Source: an uncultured bacterium
GTDB taxonomy: Bacteria; Acidobacteriota; HRBIN11; JAKEFK01
Length of the DNA: 64,000 bases
Assembly (NCBI GenBank): GCA_963771165.1
Contig: CAVYSN010000004.1
Location: forward strand, 30,114-94,113
Reading direction: 5' to 3'
Numbering within the stretch: the first letter of the stretch is position 1; each line of letters begins with the position of its first letter. Both the position numbers and the translations under genes were made by a program. The notes beneath the pieces are model-generated. The model searched no databases. It had not been told where the DNA came from and saw only the letters and a program-made list of their open reading frames with translations. Shown piece after piece: positions 2,426-60,550 of the stretch.

Positions 2426-4847
2426 TTACCTCACAACAATATTGATCAGTTTATCCGGAACGAACACGATCTTGACAATCTGCTTCCCTTCCAGCTGTCT
2501 TTGAACTTTTTCATCCTTTGTCGCCAGATCCAGGATCTGTTCCTGAGAAAAACCGCGCGGAGCAGGCATGGAAGCGCGCAGTTTTCCATTCACCTGCACC
2601 ACAATCGTCGCCTGTTCCTCCTGGGCCAGGCCGGCATTGAATTCCGGCCATGGATGCGAAGACAGAAGCCGGTCATGGCCCATAGCCGCCCAGAGAGCTT
2701 CGGTCATGTGAGGAGCAAACGGGTTCAACAAATGCAGGATGGTTTGGAGTGATTGATGCACCGTTCTTGCGGAAGGTGGATTCGATTGCTGGATCGCATC
2801 TGTGGTGGCATTCACAAGTTCCATGATCGCACTGATCGCCGTATTTTGATGCATGCGTTCATCTATATCTTGAGTCACTTTGCGCACGGTCTGATGAATC
2901 TTTCGTTCCAGCGCGCGATCCGATTCTGCATTTCCTTCCGATTTGTACTGCATGTTCTGGGAAATCAGCTTCCACACGCGATGCAAGAAACGATGCGAGC
3001 CTTCCACACCCTGATCGCTCCATTCCAGTTCCTTTTCAGGTGGGGCGGCGAAGAGGCTGAACAGCCTTACGGTGTCCGCTCCATAACGCGCGATCAGATC
3101 ATCCGGATCCACCACGTTCCCTTTCGACTTCGACATTTTGGCGCCGTCTTTGATGACCATGCCCTGCGTGAACAAACGTTGGACCGGTTCATCGAAATTA
3201 ACCATTCCCATATCGTAAAAAATTTTCGTGAAAAACCGGCAATAGATCAAATGAAGAATCGCATGCTCAACTCCACCGATGTACATATCAATCGGCATCC
3301 AGTAGCTGACAGCATCTTGATTAAACATCGCGCGATCTTCGTGAGGCGAACAGTACCGGAAAAAGTACCAGCTCGAATCCATGAAGGTATCCATCGTATC
3401 GGTGTCACGGACAGCCGGTCCGCCGCATCTGGGACACGTTACATTCACGAACTCCGGCACACGCGCCAGAGGTGATCCTTTTTCCCCGCTCAGCTCAACA
3501 TGGAGCGGCAGAAGCACAGGCAAATCTTGATCGGGAACAGGAACGATTCCATCCTTTTCACAATGAATCATCGGAATGGGAGTACCCCAGTAACGCTGCC
3601 TCGATATGCCCCAATCCTTGATTTTGAAAGTAACGGCCCCTTCGCCGAATCCCTCGCTCTCAGCAAATGCCGTCATCTGTTTCTGCGCTTCCTCACTGGT
3701 CAGTCCGCTATAAGGAGCCGCTGTTGATGAGTGTGCCGTATTCTTCTTTCGCAGCTTCACCCGCTTCGGTCGCGATCACCGGTCGCTCCGGAATTCCGTA
3801 CTTGCGCGCAAATTCCCCATCGCGAACATCGTGCGCCGGTACAGCCATAATGGCCCCTGTCCCGTAATCCATCAACACGTAATTGGCCACCCAGATCGGA
3901 ATTTTTTCCTGACTGAATGGATTGATTGCGTACACTCCTGTGAAGAAACCCTTCTTTTCAAGGTCCTCTTTGCTGTGGAGCATCTGTTCTTCTTTCAACG
4001 CCCTTGCCTGGACGAATCGCTTCCGAGTCCGGTCCGGCAATCACCGAAAGCAATGGATGCTCCGGAGCTAGTACTACAAATGTAGCACCATAAATCGTAT
4101 CGATTCGTGTTGTAAAGACGCGGATTTTCTCACGCCTGCGTTCCACGCCGAAGTCAACGTAGGCGCCGCGGCTCTTTCCGATCCAGTTCCGCTGCATCGT
4201 TAAAACTTTTTCCGGCCAGGTGGAAAGCCTGTCGAGCCCCTCCAGCAAGCGGTCCGCGTATTCTGTGATTTTGAAATACCACTGCTCCAGCTGCCGGATG
4301 GTTACTTCTGTATCGCAGCGCCAGCATCGTCCGGCAACGACCTGTTCATTTGCAAGAACGGTCTGGCAGCTCGGACACCAGTTCACATTTCCTTTCTTGC
4401 GGTAGGCAAGGCCCTTTTCGAACATGCGAATGAAAAACCACTGGTTCCACTTGTAGTATTCGCGGCTCGCAAGTCGAGACTTCCCTTTTCCAATCATAAG
4501 AAATGCCGAGAGATTTCATCTGATTGCGCATCGCCGGGATGTTTTCGATGGTCCATTTGTAGGGCTGAACTTTGTTTTTGATGGCGGCATTTTCGGCCGG
4601 CATCCCGAGCGCATCCCATCCGATCGGATGGAGCACGTTATGCCCCCGGCGTCTTTTGTAGCGCGCGATCACATCACAGATGGCGTAATTGCGCACGTGA
4701 CCCATGTGAATTTTGCCGGATGGATACGGCAGCATCGCGAGAATGTAAAACTTCGACTTCCCGGACTCTTCGCGAGCTTCAAAACGTGGCTTCCGCTTCC
4801 CAGCGCTTTTGCCACTTCCCTTCGATGTTTCTGAAATCGTAATTCAT
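2426..4847 (-). CDS. leuS: Leucine--tRNA ligase, reading frame broken at least 4 times
   Basis: The HIGH region reads [15 protein letters not shown] and KMSKS reads [14 protein letters not shown]. The N-terminus [22 protein letters not shown] starts at 4847. It appears as five ORF pieces in the track, with breaks near 4786, 4500, 4000 and 3740. Confidence 0.95.
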
Positions 4848-19626: not shown

Positions 19627-21580
19627 ATGACCAAGTACTATGTAACAACTCCCATTTACTACATCAACGGACTACCACACATAGGGCATGCCTTTACGAC
19701 TGTGCTGTCCGATGCCATCGCCAGATATCACCGTTTACTGGGTCATGATGTTTTTTTCCTTACGGGAACAGACGAACATGGCCAGAAAGCCGAGAAAGCC
19801 GCCAGGGAACTGGAAATTTCACCGCAAGAATTGACCGACCGAATCGTTCCGACCTTCCGAGATTTATGGAAGCTTTTGAACATTTCAAACACGGACTTTA
19901 TTCGAACGACTGAAAAGAGACATCGCGAGGGTGTGGAAGAAATATTCCGGCGTTCTCATACCAACGGCGACATTTATCTTGGATCGTATGAAGGCTGGTA
20001 TTGCACTTACGATGAAAATTTTCTGACGGATGGACAACTGGTGGACGGAAAATGTCCCGACTGCCGGCGACCGGTGGAACGCATCCAAGAAGAAAGTTAC
20101 TTTTTCCGTCTCTCAAAATTCCAAGAACCTCTGCTGAACTTCTACAGAAAGAATCCTGATTTTGTCGTTCCCCGTTCCCGTTTCAATGAGGTCATCAGTT
20201 TCGTGCAAGGCGGCTTGCGCGATTTAAGCATTAGCCGCGTGAAGTTGAAATGGGGTATTCCGGTGCCGATCAATCCGGAACATGTGATCTATGTTTGGTT
20301 TGATGCCCTTTCCAACTACGTTACAGCCACGGGATTCCCAACCGACCAGGAAAAATACAAACGTTACTGGCCTGCTGACCTGCATGTGATCGGAAAAGAT
20401 ATTCTGCGATTTCATTGCGTCTACTGGCCGGCCTTTTTGCTATCTGCCGGCCTCCCGTTGCCGAAGCAAGCTCTGGTTCATGGATGGTGGCTGAAAGAAG
20501 ATGAAAAAATCTCCAAATCGCGCGGCAATGTTGTGGATCCGCATTCTTTGGTCAGCAATTTTGGAGTGGATGGACTTCGTTATTTCCTGATCCGCGAAGC
20601 GCCACTGGAAGGGGACAGCAATTATTCCTTCAACACAATTTTGAAACGGGTGAACAGCGATCTTGCAAACGATCTTGGAAATCTTGCCAGCAGAATCCTC
20701 ACAATGGTGGAACGCTATTCGGCAGGAAAAATTCCCGGTGTGGCTGCAACTCGTGCCCCTTTTCAAGATTCTCTCGAAAACATTGTGTCGCGAGTGCCTC
20801 AATATATCGCCGAGTTCACTCTGTCTCGTCTGCTCGCTGACATCTGGAGCATCGTAACAGCGATGAACAGATACATCGTTGAGGAACAACCGTGGAATCT
20901 CGCAAAAACGCCTGAGACCCGCGGGCGTCTGGAAGAGGTATTGTACAACAGCTGCGAAGGCCTGCGCATCATATGCAGGGTTGATCGCACCCGTCATTCC
21001 CGATTCCTCGGACTCGATCTGGGAACAGATCGGGTTGGGACGAACAGCTGCAAAAGCACGGATCGAGGATTTACAATGGGGCAGATTGCAGCCCGGAACC
21101 ACCATCGGCAAGATCACACCAATCTTTCCGCGCATCGAATTTAACCACCAAGACGCCAAAGTCACCAAGATCACACAGAAAAATCATTTAATCCCTGGCG
21201 AAAATGGCGATCTTGGCGCCATGGCGGTGAAAGAACCGGCAAAAGAAGAAAGTTCGGCGGATGCGACGATTGAAGACTTTCAAAAACTCGGATTGAAAGT
21301 GGGCGAGATTAAAAGCGCTGAAAAAATTAAAGGATCGAAGAAACTATTGAAGTTGAGCGTGGATCTCGGTTCGGAGACCCGGCAGCTTGTAGCCGGCATC
21401 GCGGAAGCTTACGCGGCGGAAGAATTGATCGGCAAACAGGTGATCGTTGTTTCCAATTTGAAGCCGACAAAAATCATGGGGGTTGAATCCAATGGAATGG
21501 TTCTGGCCGCCTCCATCGATGGAAAACCGGTACTCGCTTCCGTAACAGCAAAAGTCCCGAACGGAACGATTGTAAAATAA
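19627..21580 (+). CDS. metG: Methionine--tRNA ligase with C-terminal tRNA-binding domain; one frame break near 20972
   Basis: PIYYINGLPHIGHAFT is the HIGH region and KISKSRGNVVDP is KMSKS. The C-terminus reads KLLKLSVDLGSETRQLVAGIAEAY...VVSNLKPTKIMGVESNGMVLAA. Removing one nt at ~20972 gives ...LRIIAGLIAPVIP. Confidence 0.95.
21141..21230. repeat. CGCCAAG-family word-hairpin (F8) embedded in frame in the metG linker
   Basis: ttaaccaccaagacgccaaagtcaccaagatcacacag / ctggcgaaaatggcgatcttggcgccatggcggtga is translated as NHQDAKVTKITQKNHLIPGENGDLGAMAV. It has the same grammar as 277..338. Confidence 0.6.
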
Positions 21581-23767: not shown

Positions 23768-24131
23768 ATGGCAAAAAAAGCTAACGTTTACTGGCGCGCC
23801 ACTTGAACGACCTGCCAGAAGGCGGTTGCTTTCTTAAAAGGTGAGCTGGGTTACAAAGATGTAAAGTTTCGAGACCTCAAAGATCAACCACTCAAGAAAA
23901 CGGAACTGCAACAGCTCGCAAAAAAAGCCGGGTGGCGTGGACAAAATTTTTTCACGAAGAGCCATAAAATACCGGACACTTGGATTGGCGGACAAGAATC
24001 TCACGGATGACCAGAAGCTGGATTGGATGTCAAAAGAATATACGTTGATCGCGCGTCCGGTCATCGACGCGGACGGGAAGGTCGTCGCCGGCTTCTCCAA
24101 ACGCAACTACACGGAGATTTTAGGATCTTAA
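23768..24131 (+). CDS. ArsC/Spx/YffB-family thioredoxin-fold protein with in-frame TGA (UxxC) and one frame break near 23930
   Basis: MAKKANVYWRAT-TGA-TTCQKAVAFLKGELGYKDVKFRDL... stays in the same frame across TGA 23804..23806. The C-terminus reads YRTLGL...LIARPVIDADGKVVAGFSKRNY. Dropping one G from GGG near 23930 restores the frame. Confidence 0.7.
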
Positions 24132-28018: not shown

Positions 28019-30570
28019 ATGACGGGCAAAACGAAAACTAGCTCAGCTTCAAAGAAAACAAAAAACGGACGGATCAAAGAACACGTACAAAAACAAACAG
28101 AAAACGATCGTGTCAATGCGATTCGAACATCATTACAAAATCATTTACTTTATACTATGGCCAAAGATCAATACTCCGCCACCAAATTAGACCTGTATAA
28201 AAGCCTTGCCGCCACGGTCAAGGACCGGCTGGTGAAACGCTGGATACAGACTCAGCAAACTTATTACAAAGTCGATGCCAAACGCATTTACTATCTCTCC
28301 CTCGAATTTCTGATGGGACGTGCTCTAGGCAACAATCTGGTGAATCTGAAAATGGTGAAGGAAGCCTACGAAGCTTTGCATCAAGCAGGACTCGATCTGG
28401 AGGAATTGCAGGAGTTGGAATGGGACGCCGGTCTTGGGAATGGCGGTCTGGGGCGACTGGCAGCCTGTTTTCTGGATTCCATGGCAACTTTGGAATTACC
28501 CGGATACGGTTATGGAATTCGCTATGAATATGGAATCTTTTATCAGCACATCCGGGATGGCCATCAAGTGGAAACGCCCGACAACTGGCTTCGTCACGGA
28601 AATGTCTGGGAGATTGAACGGCCGGAATACCTTTACACTGTAAAATTCAACGGACGGGTCGTTGAGTTTAAGGATAAAGAAGGAGTCCTGCGCTCCGAAT
28701 GGGTGGATACACAGGACGTTATGGCAATGGCGTACGACACACCCATTGCAGGCTACGGGAACAATACTGTAAATAATTTGCGTTTGTGGGCCGCAAAATC
28801 CACGCGCGAGTTTGACTTCGAATACTTTAATCACGGCGATTACATCAAAGCAGTTCAGGATAAACAAAAAACCGAGACAATCTCGAAAGTTCTCTATCCT
28901 AACGACAACGTCATTCAAGGCAAGGAACTACGTTTAAAACAGGAATACTTTTTTCAGTTCTGCGACGTTGCAAGACATCGTTCGACGATACCTAAAAACT
29001 CATGATGATTTTTCGGAGTTTTCAAGTAAGGTCGCGATTCAGTTAAACGACACTCATCCCGCCATCGCAATTCCGGAGTTGATGCGGCTCCTGGTCGATG
29101 TTTATGAAGTGCCCTGGGAGAAAGCATGGAAAATTACAATCGACACGTTCGGATATACAAACCATACGATCCTTCCCGAAGCGTTGGAAAAGTGGCCGGT
29201 TTCCATGATGGAAGCAACCTTGCCCCGCCATATGGATATCATTTACGAAATCAACAGGCGTTTTCTGGACGAAGTCAGCAAACGTTTTCCGGACGATCCT
29301 GCACGCATGGCCCGGATGTCACTGATCGAGGAAGGTGGCGACAAGCAGGTCCGCATGGCACACCTCGCCATCGTTGGCAGCCATTCGATCAACGGCGTAG
29401 CGGCGCTCCATACGGAGATTACTAAAAAAGGAACTTTTTAAGGACTTCTACGAAATGACGCCGGAAAAATTCAATAACAAAACCAACGGCATTACACAAC
29501 GCCGCTGGTTGTTGAAATGCAATCCACGGTTGTCCGATCTGATTTCAAGCGAAATCGGCGAGAAATGGGCTACGGATTTGTATGAGATGAGACAGCTGCG
29601 CCCTCTTGCATCGGATCACGCGTTTCAAGAAAAGTGGCGTGAAATCAAACGCCACAACAAAGAGGTTTTCGCCGATTATGTCGCCAGATTAACGGGCGTA
29701 AAAGCCAATCTGGATTCCATTTTCGATATTCAGGTGAAACGCATCCATGAATATAAGCGCCAGCTGATGAATGCGCTCCATGTGATCTACCTTTACAACA
29801 AGATCAAAAACAACCCGAACGATCCATTCGTACCCCGAACCAAAATCTTTGCAGGAAAAGCAGCTCCCGGTTATTTTCTGGCCAAACTCATCATTAAGCT
29901 CATCAACTCGATCGCGGATGTTGTGAACCGGGATCCGGATATCGGGGACAAATTGCGTGTTGTGTTTTTGCCGAACTATTGCGTATCCATGGCGGAAAAA
30001 ATCATGCCCGCGGCTGATTTGTCCGAACAAATATCGACTGCGGGAATGGAAGCTTCCGGAACCGGAAATATGAAATTTGCACTCAACGGAGCGCTTACAA
30101 TCGGCACTCTGGACGGCGCCAACATCGAAATCATGGAAGAAGTCGGTGAAGAAAACATTTTCATTTTTGGGCTGAACGCTGACGAAGTGAAGGGGCTAAA
30201 GAATAGCGGATACAAACCATCGGATTACTACGACAGGAATCCCGATTTGAAGAAGATTATCGACATGATCGCTTCCGGCTATTTTTCGCCGTCCAATACG
30301 GAACTGTTCAAACCGATCGTGCAATCACTTCTCAGTTTGGATCCATTTATGGTGCTTGCCGATTTCGAATCGTACGTGCGCTGCCAATCGAAAGTCTGGA
30401 AAGAATTCTTGATCCCCGATGAATGGACACGGAAAAGTATTCTTAACGTGGCAGGCATGGGAAAATTTTCCAGCGATCGCAGTATTAGTGAATACGCTCA
30501 GGAAATCTGGCACGCCAAACCCGTACCGATTGTCATGCCCGAACCCGAAGCCATTGACATTAAGCTTTAA
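28019..30570 (+). CDS. glgP: Glycogen/alpha-glucan phosphorylase, 2 frame breaks (~28975, ~29428)
   Basis: [56 protein letters not shown], and [20 protein letters not shown] (the PLP lysine region). The second break is an A6 run at 29424..29429; removing one A gives [13 protein letters not shown]. Confidence 0.95.
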
Positions 30571-58559: not shown

Positions 58560-58961
58560 ATGACCGAAAGACATTTCACACCTGAAGAAGCAGATCATTT
58601 GATTCCAAAATTGGAGCAGATCGTTTCCAATATGCTGGATCAGCGAAAGTCAGCATTGGCTCTTGGGGAAGAACTGCAGGCAATGCAGGATCGAATTCAA
58701 TCGGGTGAAAACGTCATCGCCTCGGATCTGATGAATAAAAGAACGGAGCTCGATTTCATCGTTGAAATCATTCAGGAAGGGCTGAATCAAATCGAAGATC
58801 TGGGTGGACATCCTAAAGATCTGGATCTTGGATTGGTGGATTTTCCAGCGGAGCTTGATGGCGAAGAAATATTATTGTGCTGGCGATATGGGGAGAAGTC
58901 GATCCGCTTTTATCATGGTCCCGAGGACGGTTACTCCGGCCGAAAGCCGTTAAGACGGTAA
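58560..58961 (+). CDS. DUF2203 family protein
   Basis: 133 aa; FTPEEADHLIPKLEQIV ... LVDFPAELDGEEILLCWRYGE. A TATAAT box at 58546..58551 ends 8 nt upstream of the ATG. Confidence 0.7.
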   Translation: MTERHFTPEEADHLIPKLEQIVSNMLDQRKSALALGEELQAMQDRIQSGENVIASDLMNKRTELDFIVEIIQEGLNQIEDLGGHPKDLDLGLVDFPAELDGEEILLCWRYGEKSIRFYHGPEDGYSGRKPLRR

Positions 58962-58965
58962 TTCC

Positions 58966-59928
58966 GTGGAATTGCTGGACAAGTACGGTTACAGTCTAGT
59001 TTTTGTAGTTGCACTACTGGAACAATTAGGATTACCGCTCCCAGTTGCGCCGGTGCTTCTTTTAGGTGGCGCTGTTGCCGCAAGTGGTAAATTATCGTTT
59101 ACAACCCTTGTCGTTTTTGCCGTTCTTGCCGCATTGATCGGAGACATTGTCTGGTACCATCTCGGCAGGCAGAAGGGGCGCAGTGTCCTCAAAATACTGT
59201 GCCATCTATCGTTGAGTCCTGAGACATGCGTTAAGAAGACAGAAGAAAGTTTTTTAAAGCACGGGATGAATTCGTTGCTGTTTGCGAAATTTGTTCCGGG
59301 GTTGAATACAATTGCTCCCCCAATGGCCGGTTTGGTTGGATCCCGTTTCGTTTCCTTTCTGTGGCGCGATCTGATCGGCGCCCTGGTATACGTTCTCGCC
59401 TTTCTGATCCCCGGTTATTTTCTTGAAAAAAGTATTTTTCACATTACAACTCTCTTCGAACAGCTGGGACGAACCTTTTTCTGGCTGCTTGTAGTATCAC
59501 TGATTGGTTACTTATTCATCAAATACATCAAGCTGAAACTGTTGCAGAAGCTTCTTTACAAGGAACGAATCACTCCGGAAGAACTTCATGAACGAATCCA
59601 CGCAGGAGAAGCTGTCATCATTGTGGATATTCGCTCAAACATCCCGACCGATTTGGATGCCGGATTTATTCCCGGGGCGATCCGCATTCCACCGGACGAG
59701 ATCGATGAGCATATGCATCGTCTGGATAAGGAACGATGGATTGTCATGTATTGTACGTGACCCAACGAATTCACAAGTGCCCGTGTGGCAAAGCTACTGT
59801 TCGATCGAGGTTATCAGAAAGTAAGACCTTTGCTGGGTGGATACGACGCGTGGGTGAACGCAGGATTCCCTGTTGAACCTTATCAACCTTCGTTGAAATC
59901 ACATGAAGAAACCAAAAACGCCTCCTGA
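58966..59928 (+). CDS. DedA (VTT/SNARE-associated) membrane domain fused to a rhodanese domain; in-frame TGA in the rhodanese active-site loop
   Basis: The DedA motifs are LEQLGLPLPV, GDIVWYHLGR and LFAKFVPGLNTIAPP. The rhodanese reads IIVDIRS...WIVMYCT-TGA-PNEFTSARVAKLLFDRGYQKVRPLLGGYDAWVNAGFPVE and stays in the same frame on both sides of 59758..59760. Confidence 0.8.
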
Positions 59929-60550
59929 ACAGCGGATTGGTGAAATTCTCAAACTGCTAAAAAAGGAATATCCCGATGCGACCTGTTCTTTGAATTACAC
60001 AACTCCATTTGAGCTGTTGATTGCAACAATTCTGTCCGCGCAATGCACAGATGTAAGAGTAAACCTGGTTACGAAAGAGCTCTTTCGCAAGTACGCCGGA
60101 CCAAAAGACTATCTCGCTGTTCCGGAAGAAGAATTACAAAACGATATACGCACAACCGGTTTTTTTCGTAATAAAACAAAAAGTATTCGCGGAGCCAGTG
60201 CAAAGATGATTGAGGAATTTGGAGGAGAAGTCCCCGCGACTATGGAAAAACTGTTAACCTTGCCTGGAGTGGCCCGAAAGACGGCAAATGTGGTTCTTGG
60301 AAATGCTTTTCGCATCACATCCGGCGTTGTTGTGGACACTCACGTCAGTCGGGTAAGCCAAAGGTTAGGGCTAACGAAAGAGACTCATCCTGAAAAAATC
60401 GAACAGGCCTTGATGAAACTCATCCCGAAGAAAGATTGGATTTCTTTCAGCCACCGGCTGATTCTGCACGGCCGCTATGTTTGCAAAGCGCCGAAACCGG
60501 ATTGTCCCAATTGTGTGCTGAATCACCTCTGCCCTTCCTCAACGGTATGA
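59903..60550 (+). CDS. nth: Endonuclease III
   Basis: LIATILSAQCTDVRVN, LPGVARKTANVVLG (HhH), and the Fe-S cluster motif CKAPKPDCPNCVLNHLC. Confidence 0.95.
   Translation: MKKPKTPPEQRIGEILKLLKKEYPDATCSLNYTTPFELLIATILSAQCTDVRVNLVTKELFRKYAGPKDYLAVPEEELQNDIRTTGFFRNKTKSIRGASAKMIEEFGGEVPATMEKLLTLPGVARKTANVVLGNAFRITSGVVVDTHVSRVSQRLGLTKETHPEKIEQALMKLIPKKDWISFSHRLILHGRYVCKAPKPDCPNCVLNHLCPSSTV

What the first reader, a model, noticed from the sequence alone, without database searches (positions are those of the whole stretch)
59758..59760. In-frame TGA inside the rhodanese active-site loop of a DedA-rhodanese fusion: a second selenocysteine candidate
The rhodanese domain reads ...ERWIVMYCT-TGA-PNEFTSARVAKLLFDRGYQKVRPLLGGYDAWVNAGFPVE. 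It stays in the same frame and keeps canonical rhodanese sequence on both sides of the TGA, through to the stop at 59926..59928.

The Cys after VMY is at the catalytic position. From memory, relatives of this architecture carry C-x-C-P-N-E, so the TGA would replace the second Cys and give a C-T-U pair capable of forming a selenylsulfide.

Rhodanese-like proteins are among families reported to have Sec-containing members. Only short stems follow the TGA (for example 5 bp at 59771..59788), so SECIS evidence here is weak.
Basis: partly seen in the sequence, partly recalled or inferred. Interest (0 to 1): 0.7.

Follow-up and report, generated by a model that had tools for sequence, protein, structure and literature searches.

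The report
Selenocysteine-coding membrane DedA-rhodanese fusion gene
The in-frame TGA at 59758-59760 is almost certainly a selenocysteine codon in a membrane DedA-rhodanese protein, and the same TGA plus a small RNA hairpin is kept in about 150 related genes that public annotation cuts short.

Summary
ORF 58966..59928 (+) encodes a DedA/VTT membrane domain fused to a rhodanese domain. It has one in-frame TGA at 59758-59760 inside ...IVMYC-T-[TGA]-PNEFTSARVA.

Comparative evidence points to selenocysteine:
- Of 160 related loci, 147 carry TGA at this codon, 13 carry TGC/TGT, and none carries TAA or TAG.
- All 40 full-length database homologues read C-x-C-P-N-E.
- The frame stays open after the TGA under purifying selection (dN/dS about 0.05).
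- A hairpin sits 21 nt downstream (window 59778-59790, loop CGUGU). It is kept at synonymous sites only in the TGA forms: 105/110 observed against about 19 expected, and 1/13 in Cys forms. It meets the published bacterial SECIS constraints.
- TGA is also the ordinary stop in this window, including this gene's own stop.

On its own the window's hairpin is weak (4 bp, z = -0.5). No sel genes or tRNA-Sec lie in the window.

A rhodanese C-x-U selenoprotein form is already known (NF041203). The DedA-fused form is not in NCBIfam or in the reviews I read, and it is truncated in public records. I class it as a new variant of a known kind. Its biochemical role is inferred only.

The parts
58966..59928 (+). 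Complete selenoprotein gene: 320 codons (GTG start, Sec at codon 265) plus TGA stop. Gene callers would report it as a 264-aa protein.
   Evidence: Homologue starts (MELLxKYGY) agree with this start. The frame is intact, although several other genes in the window are frame-broken.
59041..59418 (+). DedA/VTT membrane domain (aa 26-151)
   Evidence: Pfam PF09335, 58 bits, E 1.7e-15. NCBIfam DedA/UptA models hit below their cut-offs.
59200..59202 (+). Cys79 codon (TGC), invariant in the family
   Evidence: C in 144/144 unique family sequences. Not conserved in YghB.
59227..59229 (+). Cys88 codon (TGC), invariant in the family
   Evidence: C in 144/144 unique family sequences. Not conserved in YghB.
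59572..59859 (+). Rhodanese domain (aa 203-298), spanning the TGA
   Evidence: Pfam PF00581, 49.8 bits. NF041203 'rhodanese-related (seleno)protein', 91.2 bits against a cut-off of 115. The AF2 model of Cys homologue P0087 (pLDDT 88) matches solved single-domain rhodaneses, with target TM-score up to 0.87.
59752..59754 (+). Cys263 codon (TGT), first residue of the C-T-U motif
   Evidence: C in 144/144. Last Cys of every truncated gene call.
59758..59760 (+). In-frame TGA, inferred selenocysteine codon (U265)
   Evidence: Among 160 related loci: 147 TGA, 13 TGC/TGT, 0 TAA/TAG. Aligns with Cys in all 40 full-length homologues.
59778..59790 (+). Core of the SECIS-like hairpin: stem UGCC (59778-59781) / GGCA (59787-59790), apical loop CGUGU (59782-59786). 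The loop starts 21 nt after the UGA. In most relatives the stem extends to 6-7 bp (equivalent to 59775-59793).
   Evidence: The G at loop position 2 is present in 128/128 sequences. Synonymous sites in the stem are nearly invariant in TGA forms and free in Cys forms.
59766..59803 (+). Possible lower helix of the element in the close clade (CGAAU 59766-59770 with GUUCG 59799-59803). Predicted only.
   Evidence: It appears in the minimum-free-energy folds of the window (-7.5 kcal/mol for 38 nt, -12.3 for 58 nt) and of only two of the other 12 close relatives folded (L003, L085). It was not tested for covariation and is not more stable than shuffles.
59926..59928 (+). True stop codon of the gene (also TGA). 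Overlaps the start of the downstream nth-like gene (59903..60550).
58560..58961 (+). Upstream DUF2203 gene, 4 nt from the start codon. The neighbourhood is conserved only in the closest clade.
   Evidence: Pfam PF09969. The same neighbour occurs in 13 loci including the window.

Best explanation
The gene at 58966..59928 encodes a 320-residue inner-membrane selenoprotein. An N-terminal DedA/VTT transporter-like domain is joined by a basic linker helix to a C-terminal rhodanese domain. The active-site loop of that domain reads Cys263-Thr-Sec265-Pro-Asn-Glu.

Shown here:
- The UGA is conserved as UGA or replaced by a Cys codon, and never by another stop.
- The sequence after it is under protein-coding purifying selection.
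- A small hairpin 21 nt downstream is held by selection at synonymous sites, and only in the UGA forms.

Inferred:
- During translation, SelB carrying Sec-tRNA(Sec) binds this hairpin (a bacterial SECIS) and inserts selenocysteine at the UGA instead of terminating.
- The vicinal Cys-x-Sec pair works as a chalcogen-transfer or redox centre that cycles between selenol/thiol, a selenenylsulfide, and a persulfide or selenotrisulfide.
- The rhodanese domain sits on the cytoplasmic face. The segment after the last membrane helix, KYIKLKLLQKLLYKER, is rich in positive charges.
- The centre may work together with two further invariant cysteines in the DedA domain (C79, C88). It would act on a sulfur or selenium species, or a lipid-linked substrate, that the DedA domain moves.

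The substrate is unknown.
For: 1. Cys/Sec pairing: all 40 full-length homologues have C-x-C-P-[NSH]-E (one has L in place of P), with the second Cys at the TGA column.

2. Of 160 related loci from genomes and metagenomes, 147 have TGA, 7 TGC, 6 TGT and 0 TAA/TAG at this codon. The taxa include Acidobacteriota, Methylomirabilota/Rokubacteria, Binatia, Nitrospinota and deltaproteobacteria.

3. Of the 80 closest database proteins (54-100% identity), 79 are truncated gene calls ending ...MYCT.

4. Downstream of the TGA the frame stays open for at least 39 codons in every locus that holds the whole tail; four shorter readings run off the end of their contig or, in L072, lose the conserved sequence after about 20 codons. 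dN is 0.06-0.20 while dS is near or beyond saturation, so omega is about 0.05, the same as upstream. Mean entropy per codon position is 0.72/0.65/1.44 bits.

5. Hairpin: at least 4 contiguous bp in 122/128 unique TGA sequences against 1/13 Cys sequences. Third-position entropy at the five hairpin codons is 0-0.97 bits against about 1.8 elsewhere. In total 89.4% of cells pair, against 21-61% when the partner is slid. Compensatory changes occur at two pairs: CG/GC/AU and CG/UA. With synonymous-codon resampling, 105/110 were observed against a mean of 19 and a maximum of 30.

6. The window's element meets the published bSECIS constraints in PMC13188914: a 5-nt loop, a 4-bp stem, G then U at loop positions 2-3, 21-nt spacing, and -7.5 to -12.3 kcal/mol for the extended fold.

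7. TGA is the normal stop for 13 of 26 Pfam-supported ORFs in the window, including this gene, so the code is not reassigned.

8. Cys forms are scattered in the tree (about 10 switches) and lack the hairpin, even where they are only 0.13 distant from Sec forms.

9. Rhodanese C-x-U selenoproteins are an accepted family (NF041203). Acidobacteria are recorded as Sec decoders.

10. A second TGA in the window (23804), in an ArsC-like gene, is followed by a GGUU-loop hairpin.
Against: - No selA, selB, selD or tRNA-Sec gene is in the 64-kb window or in the fetched flanks. The machinery is therefore unverified for this genome.
- The window's own hairpin has only 4 bp (-4.2 kcal/mol). The extended fold is no more stable than shuffled sequence (z = -0.5).
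- RNAalifold run de novo recovers only 3 pairs at -1.8 kcal/mol.
- No Rfam family matches.
- The central stem pairs never vary, so covariation rests on two outer pairs.
- The window shows many frameshifted genes, so its base-level accuracy is imperfect.
- There is no experimental evidence of selenium incorporation for any member.
- The functional part (redox or chalcogen relay, cytoplasmic orientation, link to DedA transport) is inference from architecture. No conserved gene neighbourhood supports it.
Confidence: 0.88

Rival explanations
1. The TGA is a genuine stop. The organism makes a 264-residue DedA protein with a truncated, inactive rhodanese stub. The downstream conserved sequence is a relic or a separate small ORF (for example GTG 59785..59928).
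For: Gene callers and public records annotate exactly this, with 79 truncated calls. No Sec machinery was seen in the window.
Against: - A relic would not stay open, in frame and under omega of about 0.05 across lineages whose synonymous sites are saturated.
- A true stop would drift among TGA, TAA and TAG, yet 147/147 stops are TGA.
- Cys forms occupy the same column.
- The truncation would remove half of the rhodanese fold, including the active-site loop.
- The hairpin is specific to TGA forms.
Confidence: 0.03
2. The TGA is a sequencing or assembly error in this window, and the real codon is TGC or TGT (Cys).
For: The window contains many frame-broken genes (glycogen phosphorylase, LeuRS, MetRS, ArsC-like). 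This indicates an error-prone assembly.
Against: - The visible errors are indels, not substitutions, and this ORF keeps its frame.
- All 14 closest relatives from independent assemblies (59-77% identity; L001-L004, L081-L090) have TGA.
- The window carries the Sec-form hairpin, including the U-A compensatory pair seen in L083 and L084.
Confidence: 0.03
3. The UGA is read through without selenocysteine. This could be near-cognate insertion of Trp, Cys or Arg stimulated by the downstream hairpin, or a lineage-wide UGA reassignment.
For: Downstream hairpins can stimulate read-through in general. No Sec machinery was verified here.
Against: - TGA ends 13 of 26 well-supported ORFs in the window, including this gene, so reassignment is excluded.
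- The position alternates only with Cys, which is the hallmark of Sec.
- The hairpin has the spacing and G-containing small loop of SelB-type SECIS elements.
- The same C-x-U rhodanese motif is an accepted selenoprotein family.
Confidence: 0.05

Closest known systems
[quoted passage not shown]
   Same: Both have a rhodanese fold and the same Cys-x-Sec motif at the end of the central strand. This is the best NCBIfam hit for the window's domain (91.2 bits over profile positions 20-125 of 126). It is listed as a predicted selenoprotein family in reviews.
   Different: NF041203 is a stand-alone protein of about 126 aa. The window's protein scores below that model's cut-off (115) and is fused to a roughly 200-aa DedA membrane domain with its own invariant Cys pair. 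Its loop continues P-N-E-(F/A)-T-S.
Cys-containing DedA-rhodanese fusions (COG0586 DedA + PF00581), noted in Todor et al. mBio 2023 (PMC10127716)
   Same: Same two-domain architecture. They are direct homologues at 38-47% identity with C-x-C-P-N-E at the same place.
   Different: [quoted passage not shown] In the 160 loci closest to the window, the Sec form is the majority (147 against 13).
TsoB, rhodanese/DsbD fusion-like selenoprotein (NF045694)
   Same: A rhodanese domain fused to a polytopic membrane domain, with Sec in the protein. It is a precedent for a membrane-bound rhodanese selenoprotein with a possible thiol/selenol relay.
   Different: The membrane domain is different (DsbD/CcdA-like, not DedA), and TsoB has two Sec residues in a UxxxxU motif. 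Sequence similarity is only marginal (27.8 bits against a cut-off of 805).
E. coli YgaP, membrane-anchored single-domain rhodanese
   Same: A rhodanese catalytic domain tethered to the inner membrane. The fold matches the model (5hbo/5hbl).
   Different: YgaP has its rhodanese at the N-terminus followed by two plain TM helices. It has no DedA domain, a single catalytic Cys and no Sec.
Bacterial SECIS elements (E. coli fdhF type; bSECISearch consensus)
   Same: A hairpin immediately downstream of the UGA inside the coding region, with a small apical loop carrying G then G/U, and a UGA-to-loop distance within 16-37 nt.
   Different: The sequence is unrelated to fdhF. The stem in the window is at the 4-bp minimum. 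There is no Rfam model and no bulged U. SelB binding is untested.

Membership tests
Bacterial selenoprotein gene (Sec-UGA plus bSECIS) | In-frame UGA that aligns with Cys in homologues | tested here: met
   All 40 full-length homologues have Cys at the column. 13 loci have TGC/TGT.
Bacterial selenoprotein gene (Sec-UGA plus bSECIS) | UGA-containing orthologues in other organisms, with conserved sequence on both sides | tested here: met
   147 of 160 loci have TGA. Downstream omega is about 0.05 with coding periodicity.
Bacterial selenoprotein gene (Sec-UGA plus bSECIS) | bSECIS model: 3-9 nt apical loop, stem of at least 4 bp, G in the first two loop positions, 16-37 nt from the UGA, MFE of -7.5 kcal/mol or lower | tested here: met
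   The window has loop CGUGU, a 4-bp stem, 21-nt spacing, and -7.5 (38 nt) or -12.3 kcal/mol (58 nt). The constraints come from PMC13188914. The stem-length and energy limits are met only at the boundary; relatives have 6-7 bp.
Bacterial selenoprotein gene (Sec-UGA plus bSECIS) | The hairpin is under selection as RNA, not as a by-product of the protein sequence | tested here: met
   Synonymous resampling: 105/110 against a mean of 19. TGA forms 122/128 against Cys forms 1/13. Compensatory pairs are present.
Bacterial selenoprotein gene (Sec-UGA plus bSECIS) | selA, selB, selC (tRNA-Sec) and selD present in the same genome | not testable with these tools
   None is in the window or the fetched flanks. 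The rest of the source contig is not available. The phylum is recorded as Sec-decoding.
Bacterial selenoprotein gene (Sec-UGA plus bSECIS) | Selenium demonstrated in the protein | not testable with these tools
   Needs 75Se labelling or mass spectrometry.
NCBIfam NF041203 rhodanese_LYCAU (seleno)protein | Score at or above the curated cut-off (115 bits) | tested here: not met
   91.2 bits.
NCBIfam NF041203 rhodanese_LYCAU (seleno)protein | Y-C-x-U motif in the rhodanese active-site region | tested here: met
   The window has M-Y-C-T-U; relatives have [YF]-C-[TSNA]-U.
NCBIfam NF041203 rhodanese_LYCAU (seleno)protein | Stand-alone single-domain protein of about 126 aa | tested here: not met
   The window's protein is a 320-aa fusion with DedA.
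Rhodanese homology domain (PF00581) | Profile match above the cut-off, and a rhodanese fold | tested here: met
   49.8 bits against a cut-off of 22.2. The AF2 model of homologue P0087 matches solved rhodaneses at 1.5-1.7 A rmsd.
Rhodanese homology domain (PF00581) | Catalytic Cys at the first position of the active-site loop | tested here: inconclusive
   Alignments split between U265 (6mxv, 3iwh; ungapped) and C263 (3tp9, GlpE; 2-residue gap). The model's secondary structure favours C263. Model coordinates could not be inspected.
DedA/VTT family (PF09335), COG0586-type UndP flippases | Profile match above the cut-off | tested here: met
   58 bits against a cut-off of 33.9.
DedA/VTT family (PF09335), COG0586-type UndP flippases | Conserved charged residues of YghB/YqjA (E39, D51, R130, R136) needed for activity | tested here: not met
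K108 and N114 are invariant in the family. UptA and DedA equivalog models score far below their cut-offs.
TsoB rhodanese/DsbD fusion-like selenoprotein (NF045694) | Score at or above the cut-off (805 bits); UxxxxU motif; DsbD-like membrane domain | tested here: not met
   27.8 bits on the rhodanese part only. The membrane domain is DedA.

The most novel reading that the evidence does not exclude
The DedA-rhodanese selenoprotein may be a membrane chalcogen relay. The DedA domain has lost the phosphate-binding arginines of UndP flippases and gained an invariant Cys79/Cys88 pair. It would move or bind a sulfur or selenium species such as selenite, thiosulfate or a persulfide, and hand it to the Cys263-x-Sec265 centre of the tethered rhodanese. 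This would be the first mechanistic link between the DedA family and selenium or sulfur trafficking, an idea raised by the old genetic link between dedA and selenite resistance. It would also be an unrecognised, widespread selenoprotein of soil Acidobacteriota and their allies.
Probability: 0.2. Interest if true: 0.75.

Novelty: new variant of a known kind. Interest (0 to 1): 0.5.

Why it matters
- Annotation. This gene and about 150 relatives in public genomes and metagenomes are cut at the Sec codon. They are filed as 258-265-aa 'VTT domain' or 'sulfurtransferase' proteins that lack their active site. A dedicated model would repair them.

- Selenoproteome. It adds a membrane-embedded rhodanese form to the five rhodanese selenoprotein forms listed so far. 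It also shows that in soil lineages (Acidobacteriota, Methylomirabilota, Binatia) the Sec form dominates the Cys form among the loci sampled here. That is unusual for a family with easy Cys replacement.

- DedA biology. The purpose of rhodanese fusions to DedA proteins is explicitly described as unclear. A Sec/Cys redox centre plus two invariant cysteines in the membrane domain gives a concrete, testable hypothesis.

Tried and rejected
- Rfam at gathering threshold on the whole window, and at E up to 10 on 59700-59930, gave no SECIS family and only one chance hit.
- ARAGORN found no tRNA in the window and no tRNA-Sec in the 160 loci.
- Pfam on 37 further window ORFs (plus the finding's own protein) found no SelA, SelB or SelD.
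- Single-sequence folding of the window's element gave z-scores of -0.5 to -1.5, which is not significant.
- RNAalifold run de novo on 125 sequences gave only 3 pairs. I therefore relied on explicit pair counts, the Sec-versus-Cys contrast and a synonymous-resampling null.
- Gene-neighbourhood clustering over 157 sources (156 loci and the window) found no broadly conserved partner. DUF2203 lies upstream only in the close clade, and a TlpA-like protein lies downstream in 26 loci.
- The look-up of encoding contigs for the window's own truncated product found nothing on record.
- Literature searches for DedA with selenoprotein, selenocysteine or rhodanese found no paper describing this family as a selenoprotein.
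Full report
OBSERVATION

An ORF starts at GTG 58966 and runs to a TGA at 59758-59760, after ...KERWIVMYCT. The same frame continues as PNEFTSARVAKLLFDRGYQKVRPLLGGYDAWVNAGFPVEPYQPSLKSHEETKNAS to a second TGA at 59926-59928. With the TGA read through, Pfam finds a VTT/DedA domain (aa 26-151, 58 bits) and a rhodanese domain (aa 203-298, 49.8 bits) that spans the TGA. The best NCBIfam match for the rhodanese part is NF041203, 'rhodanese-related (seleno)protein', at 91.2 bits. That is below its cut-off of 115.

IS THE TGA CONSERVED?

A search of about 5.8 billion proteins with the read-through product (U written as C) gave two blocks of hits.
- The 80 best hits (54-100% identity) are 248-276 aa long and cover 78-83% of the query. 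Of these, 79 end exactly at ...MYCT.
- The next 40 hits (40-45% identity) are full length (310-365 aa). All read C-x-C-P-[NSH]-E (one has L in place of P), with the second Cys at the TGA column.

I then fetched DNA for 80 loci from GTDB species genomes and 80 from JGI metagenomes. At the aligned codon, 147 loci have TGA, 7 have TGC, 6 have TGT, and none has TAA or TAG. The TGA loci come from Acidobacteriota (Terriglobia, Blastocatellia, Thermoanaerobaculia), Methylomirabilota/Rokubacteria, Binatia, Nitrospinota and 'delta proteobacterium' MAGs.

In every locus that holds the whole tail, the frame stays open for 39 to 76 more codons and encodes P-[NSHT]-E-x-[TSGA]-S-A-x-x-A...G...[VI]...P[LI]xGG...W. 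Four shorter readings stop earlier: three run off the end of their contig, and L072 loses the conserved sequence after about 20 codons.

IS THE DOWNSTREAM PART CODING?

Between the window and its 12 closest relatives, the 36 codons after the TGA have dN of 0.06-0.20 while dS is near or beyond saturation. Omega is about 0.05 where it can be calculated, the same as for the 30 codons upstream. Over 130 unique TGA sequences, mean entropy per codon position is 0.72, 0.65 and 1.44 bits. This is a translated sequence, not a relic.

IS THE GENETIC CODE ORDINARY?

TGA ends 13 of 26 Pfam-supported ORFs in the window, including this gene itself. UGA is therefore a normal stop in this organism. It is read differently only at this site, and perhaps at 23804.

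THE RNA ELEMENT

Folding each sequence showed one recurrent hairpin. Counting from the T of TGA as 0, the stem is 17-23 / 29-35 and the apical loop is 24-28. In most lineages it reads C-AGCGCC-[CGKGU]-GGCGCU-G.

In the window it is UGCC (59778-59781), loop CGUGU (59782-59786), and GGCA (59787-59790). That is 4 bp, because Lys replaces Leu on the 3' side.

- Loop composition. The loop is CGUGU, CGGGU, AGGAU or CGGGC in 122 of 128 unique sequences. G at loop position 2 is present in 128/128.
- Synonymous-site constraint. The stem lies on the codons Ser-Ala-Arg-Val/Met-Ala, so part of it follows from the protein. The third positions of these five codons have entropies of 0.39, 0.00, 0.97, 0.16 and 0.35 bits, against about 1.8 for other third positions.
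- Sec versus Cys forms. In the 13 Cys-form sequences the same third positions vary freely. At least 4 contiguous pairs occur in 122/128 TGA forms against 1/13 Cys forms.
- Resampling null. I resampled synonymous codons with each gene's own codon usage. This gave at least 4 bp in a mean of 19 of 110 sequences (maximum 30 in 200 runs), against 105 observed. For at least 6 bp the mean was 4.9 (maximum 11), against 72 observed.
- Explicit pair counting on 125 sequences. In total 89.4% of cells pair, against 21-61% when the 3' partner is slid. No shuffle of 500 reaches the observed pairing or covariation. Compensatory changes occur at the outer pair (CG 65, GC 14, AU 4) and at the third-position pair 20-32 (CG 112, UA 4, UG 6). 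The window is one of the U-A cases.
- Phylogeny. Cys forms are scattered over the tree, with about 10 switches by parsimony. They lack the hairpin even when a Sec form is only 0.13 distant.
- Fit to the bSECIS model. The published constraints are a 3-9 nt loop, a 4-16 bp stem, G in the first two loop positions usually followed by G or U, 16-37 nt between UGA and loop, and MFE of -7.5 kcal/mol or lower (PMC13188914). The window has a 5-nt loop, 4 bp, G-U at loop positions 2-3, 21-nt spacing, and -7.5 (38 nt) to -12.3 kcal/mol (58 nt).

Caveats:
- The window's hairpin alone is -4.2 kcal/mol.
- None of its folds is significantly better than shuffles (z from -0.5 to -1.5).
- RNAalifold run de novo finds only three pairs.
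- No Rfam model matches.
- The central pairs are invariant and so say nothing about pairing.

WHAT COULD NOT BE CHECKED

The window has no tRNA. The 37 further ORFs scanned against Pfam include no SelA, SelB or SelD. The fetched flanks hold no tRNA-Sec. The window's own product is not in the contig index, so the rest of the genome could not be reached.

Two indirect points:
- Acidobacteria are recorded as Sec decoders with three selenoprotein families (PMC1794560).
- The window holds a second TGA (23804-23806) in an ArsC/glutaredoxin-like N-terminus (R-A-T-U-T-T-C). It is followed by a 7-bp hairpin with a GGUU loop.

THE PROTEIN

An AF2 model of the Cys homologue P0087 (44% identity; MYCTCPNEFTS) is confident, with mean pLDDT 88 and pTM 0.81. 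It shows a helical membrane domain, a long linker helix and an alpha/beta C-terminal domain. That domain matches solved single-domain rhodaneses: target TM-score up to 0.87 and rmsd 1.5-1.7 A. The matches include the membrane-anchored YgaP.

Which residue is the nucleophile is not settled.
- Alignments to 6mxv and 3iwh are ungapped and put the catalytic Cys opposite U265 (U-P-N-E-F-T-S against C-G-G-G-F-R-S).
- Alignments to 3tp9 and GlpE put it opposite C263, with a two-residue insertion.
- In the model, the first Cys directly follows the central strand and the helix starts six residues later.
- Either way, C263 and U265 are both invariant (144/144 for C263) and form a vicinal Cys-x-Sec pair in the active-site loop.

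The DedA domain differs from characterised UndP flippases. Lys108 and Asn114 are invariant in the family. So are two cysteines, C79 and C88, that YghB lacks.

The segment after the last membrane helix is strongly basic (KYIKLKLLQKLLYKER). By the positive-inside rule this suggests a cytoplasmic rhodanese domain. That is an inference.

No gene neighbour is conserved across the family. DUF2203 lies 4 nt upstream only in the close clade (13 loci). A TlpA-like WCPHC protein follows in 26 loci of other clades.

MECHANISM

Shown: a UGA that alternates only with Cys, a translated downstream region, and a UGA-form-specific RNA hairpin at SECIS distance.

Inferred:
- SelB-dependent insertion of Sec at codon 265.
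- A Cys-x-Sec centre that cycles through selenenylsulfide or (per)sulfide adducts.
- Possibly a relay to C79/C88 in the membrane domain, acting on a sulfur or selenium species or a lipid-linked substrate. The substrate is unknown.

COMPARISON WITH WHAT IS KNOWN

Rhodanese selenoproteins are established as predicted families. The 2026 review lists five forms, including 'form 3, NF041203, CxU' and the membrane fusion TsoB (rhodanese/DsbD-like, UxxxxU). The 2022 review lists 'COG0607 form 2, CxU'.

DedA-rhodanese fusions are known as an architecture, and their meaning is called unclear (PMC10127716).

- Neither review mentions DedA, VTT, SNARE-associated, PF09335 or COG0586.
- No paper in the library links DedA with a selenoprotein of this kind.
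- NCBIfam 20.0 has no model that captures the protein.
- Public records name truncated products 'VTT domain-containing protein' or 'sulfurtransferase'.

The window's gene fails two defining features of NF041203: score and single-domain architecture. I therefore do not file it as a member. It is a new, fused variant of the known C-x-U rhodanese selenoprotein kind.

VERDICT

The probability that codon 265 encodes Sec is about 0.9. Interest is moderate. The type of discovery is familiar from selenoproteome screens. The family is large, dominated by Sec among the loci sampled here, systematically mis-annotated, and attached to a membrane family whose rhodanese fusions are unexplained.

Noticed in passing
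window 23776-24131 (TGA at 23804-23806): Second Sec candidate. An ArsC/glutaredoxin-like N-terminus reads ...VYWRAT-TGA-TTCQKAVAFLK. It is followed by a hairpin AGAAGGC-GGUU-GCUUUCU, whose loop begins 17 nt after the TGA. The C-terminal ArsC part (23937-24131, Pfam ArsC profile 20-78) lies in a different frame, so the gene also carries a frameshift.
   Followed up: partly
window 28019-30570; 2426-4735 (minus strand); 19627-21580: Several housekeeping genes are broken across frames. Glycogen phosphorylase is in three ORFs (Pfam profile 1-197, 197-353, 359-712). LeuRS is in at least three ORFs. The tRNA-binding tail of MetRS is in a separate overlapping ORF. This points to an indel-rich (long-read?) assembly or a decaying genome, and it cautions against trusting single bases in this window.
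   Followed up: partly
window 59200-59202 and 59227-59229: Two cysteines in the DedA domain (C79, C88; ...LCHLSLSPETCV...) are invariant in 144/144 family sequences and absent from E. coli YghB. They may be partners of the Cys-x-Sec centre.
   Followed up: partly
window 59287-59309 (AKFVPGLNT): The second re-entrant motif of the DedA domain has invariant Lys108 and Asn114 where YghB has the essential Arg130 and Arg136. This suggests a substrate other than undecaprenyl phosphate.
   Followed up: partly
window 58560-58961; loci L002, L081-L089 and others: A DUF2203 gene ends 4 nt before the selenoprotein start. The pairing is conserved in the 13 loci of the closest clade but not elsewhere.
   Followed up: partly
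L012:3945-5996 and 25 other loci: In another clade, the gene downstream of the DedA-rhodanese selenoprotein encodes a large secreted protein with a TlpA/thioredoxin-like WCPHC motif. No Pfam scan was run on it.
   Followed up: no
window 59903-59928: The endonuclease III-like gene (59903..60550) starts 26 nt before the selenoprotein's stop codon, so the two genes overlap.
   Followed up: no
L024, L034, L160 versus L148, L012, L022, L156: There are very recent Sec/Cys switches (protein distance 0.13-0.14). The Cys members have already lost the hairpin's closing pair or Ser codon. These are natural pairs for studying how fast a SECIS decays.
   Followed up: partly
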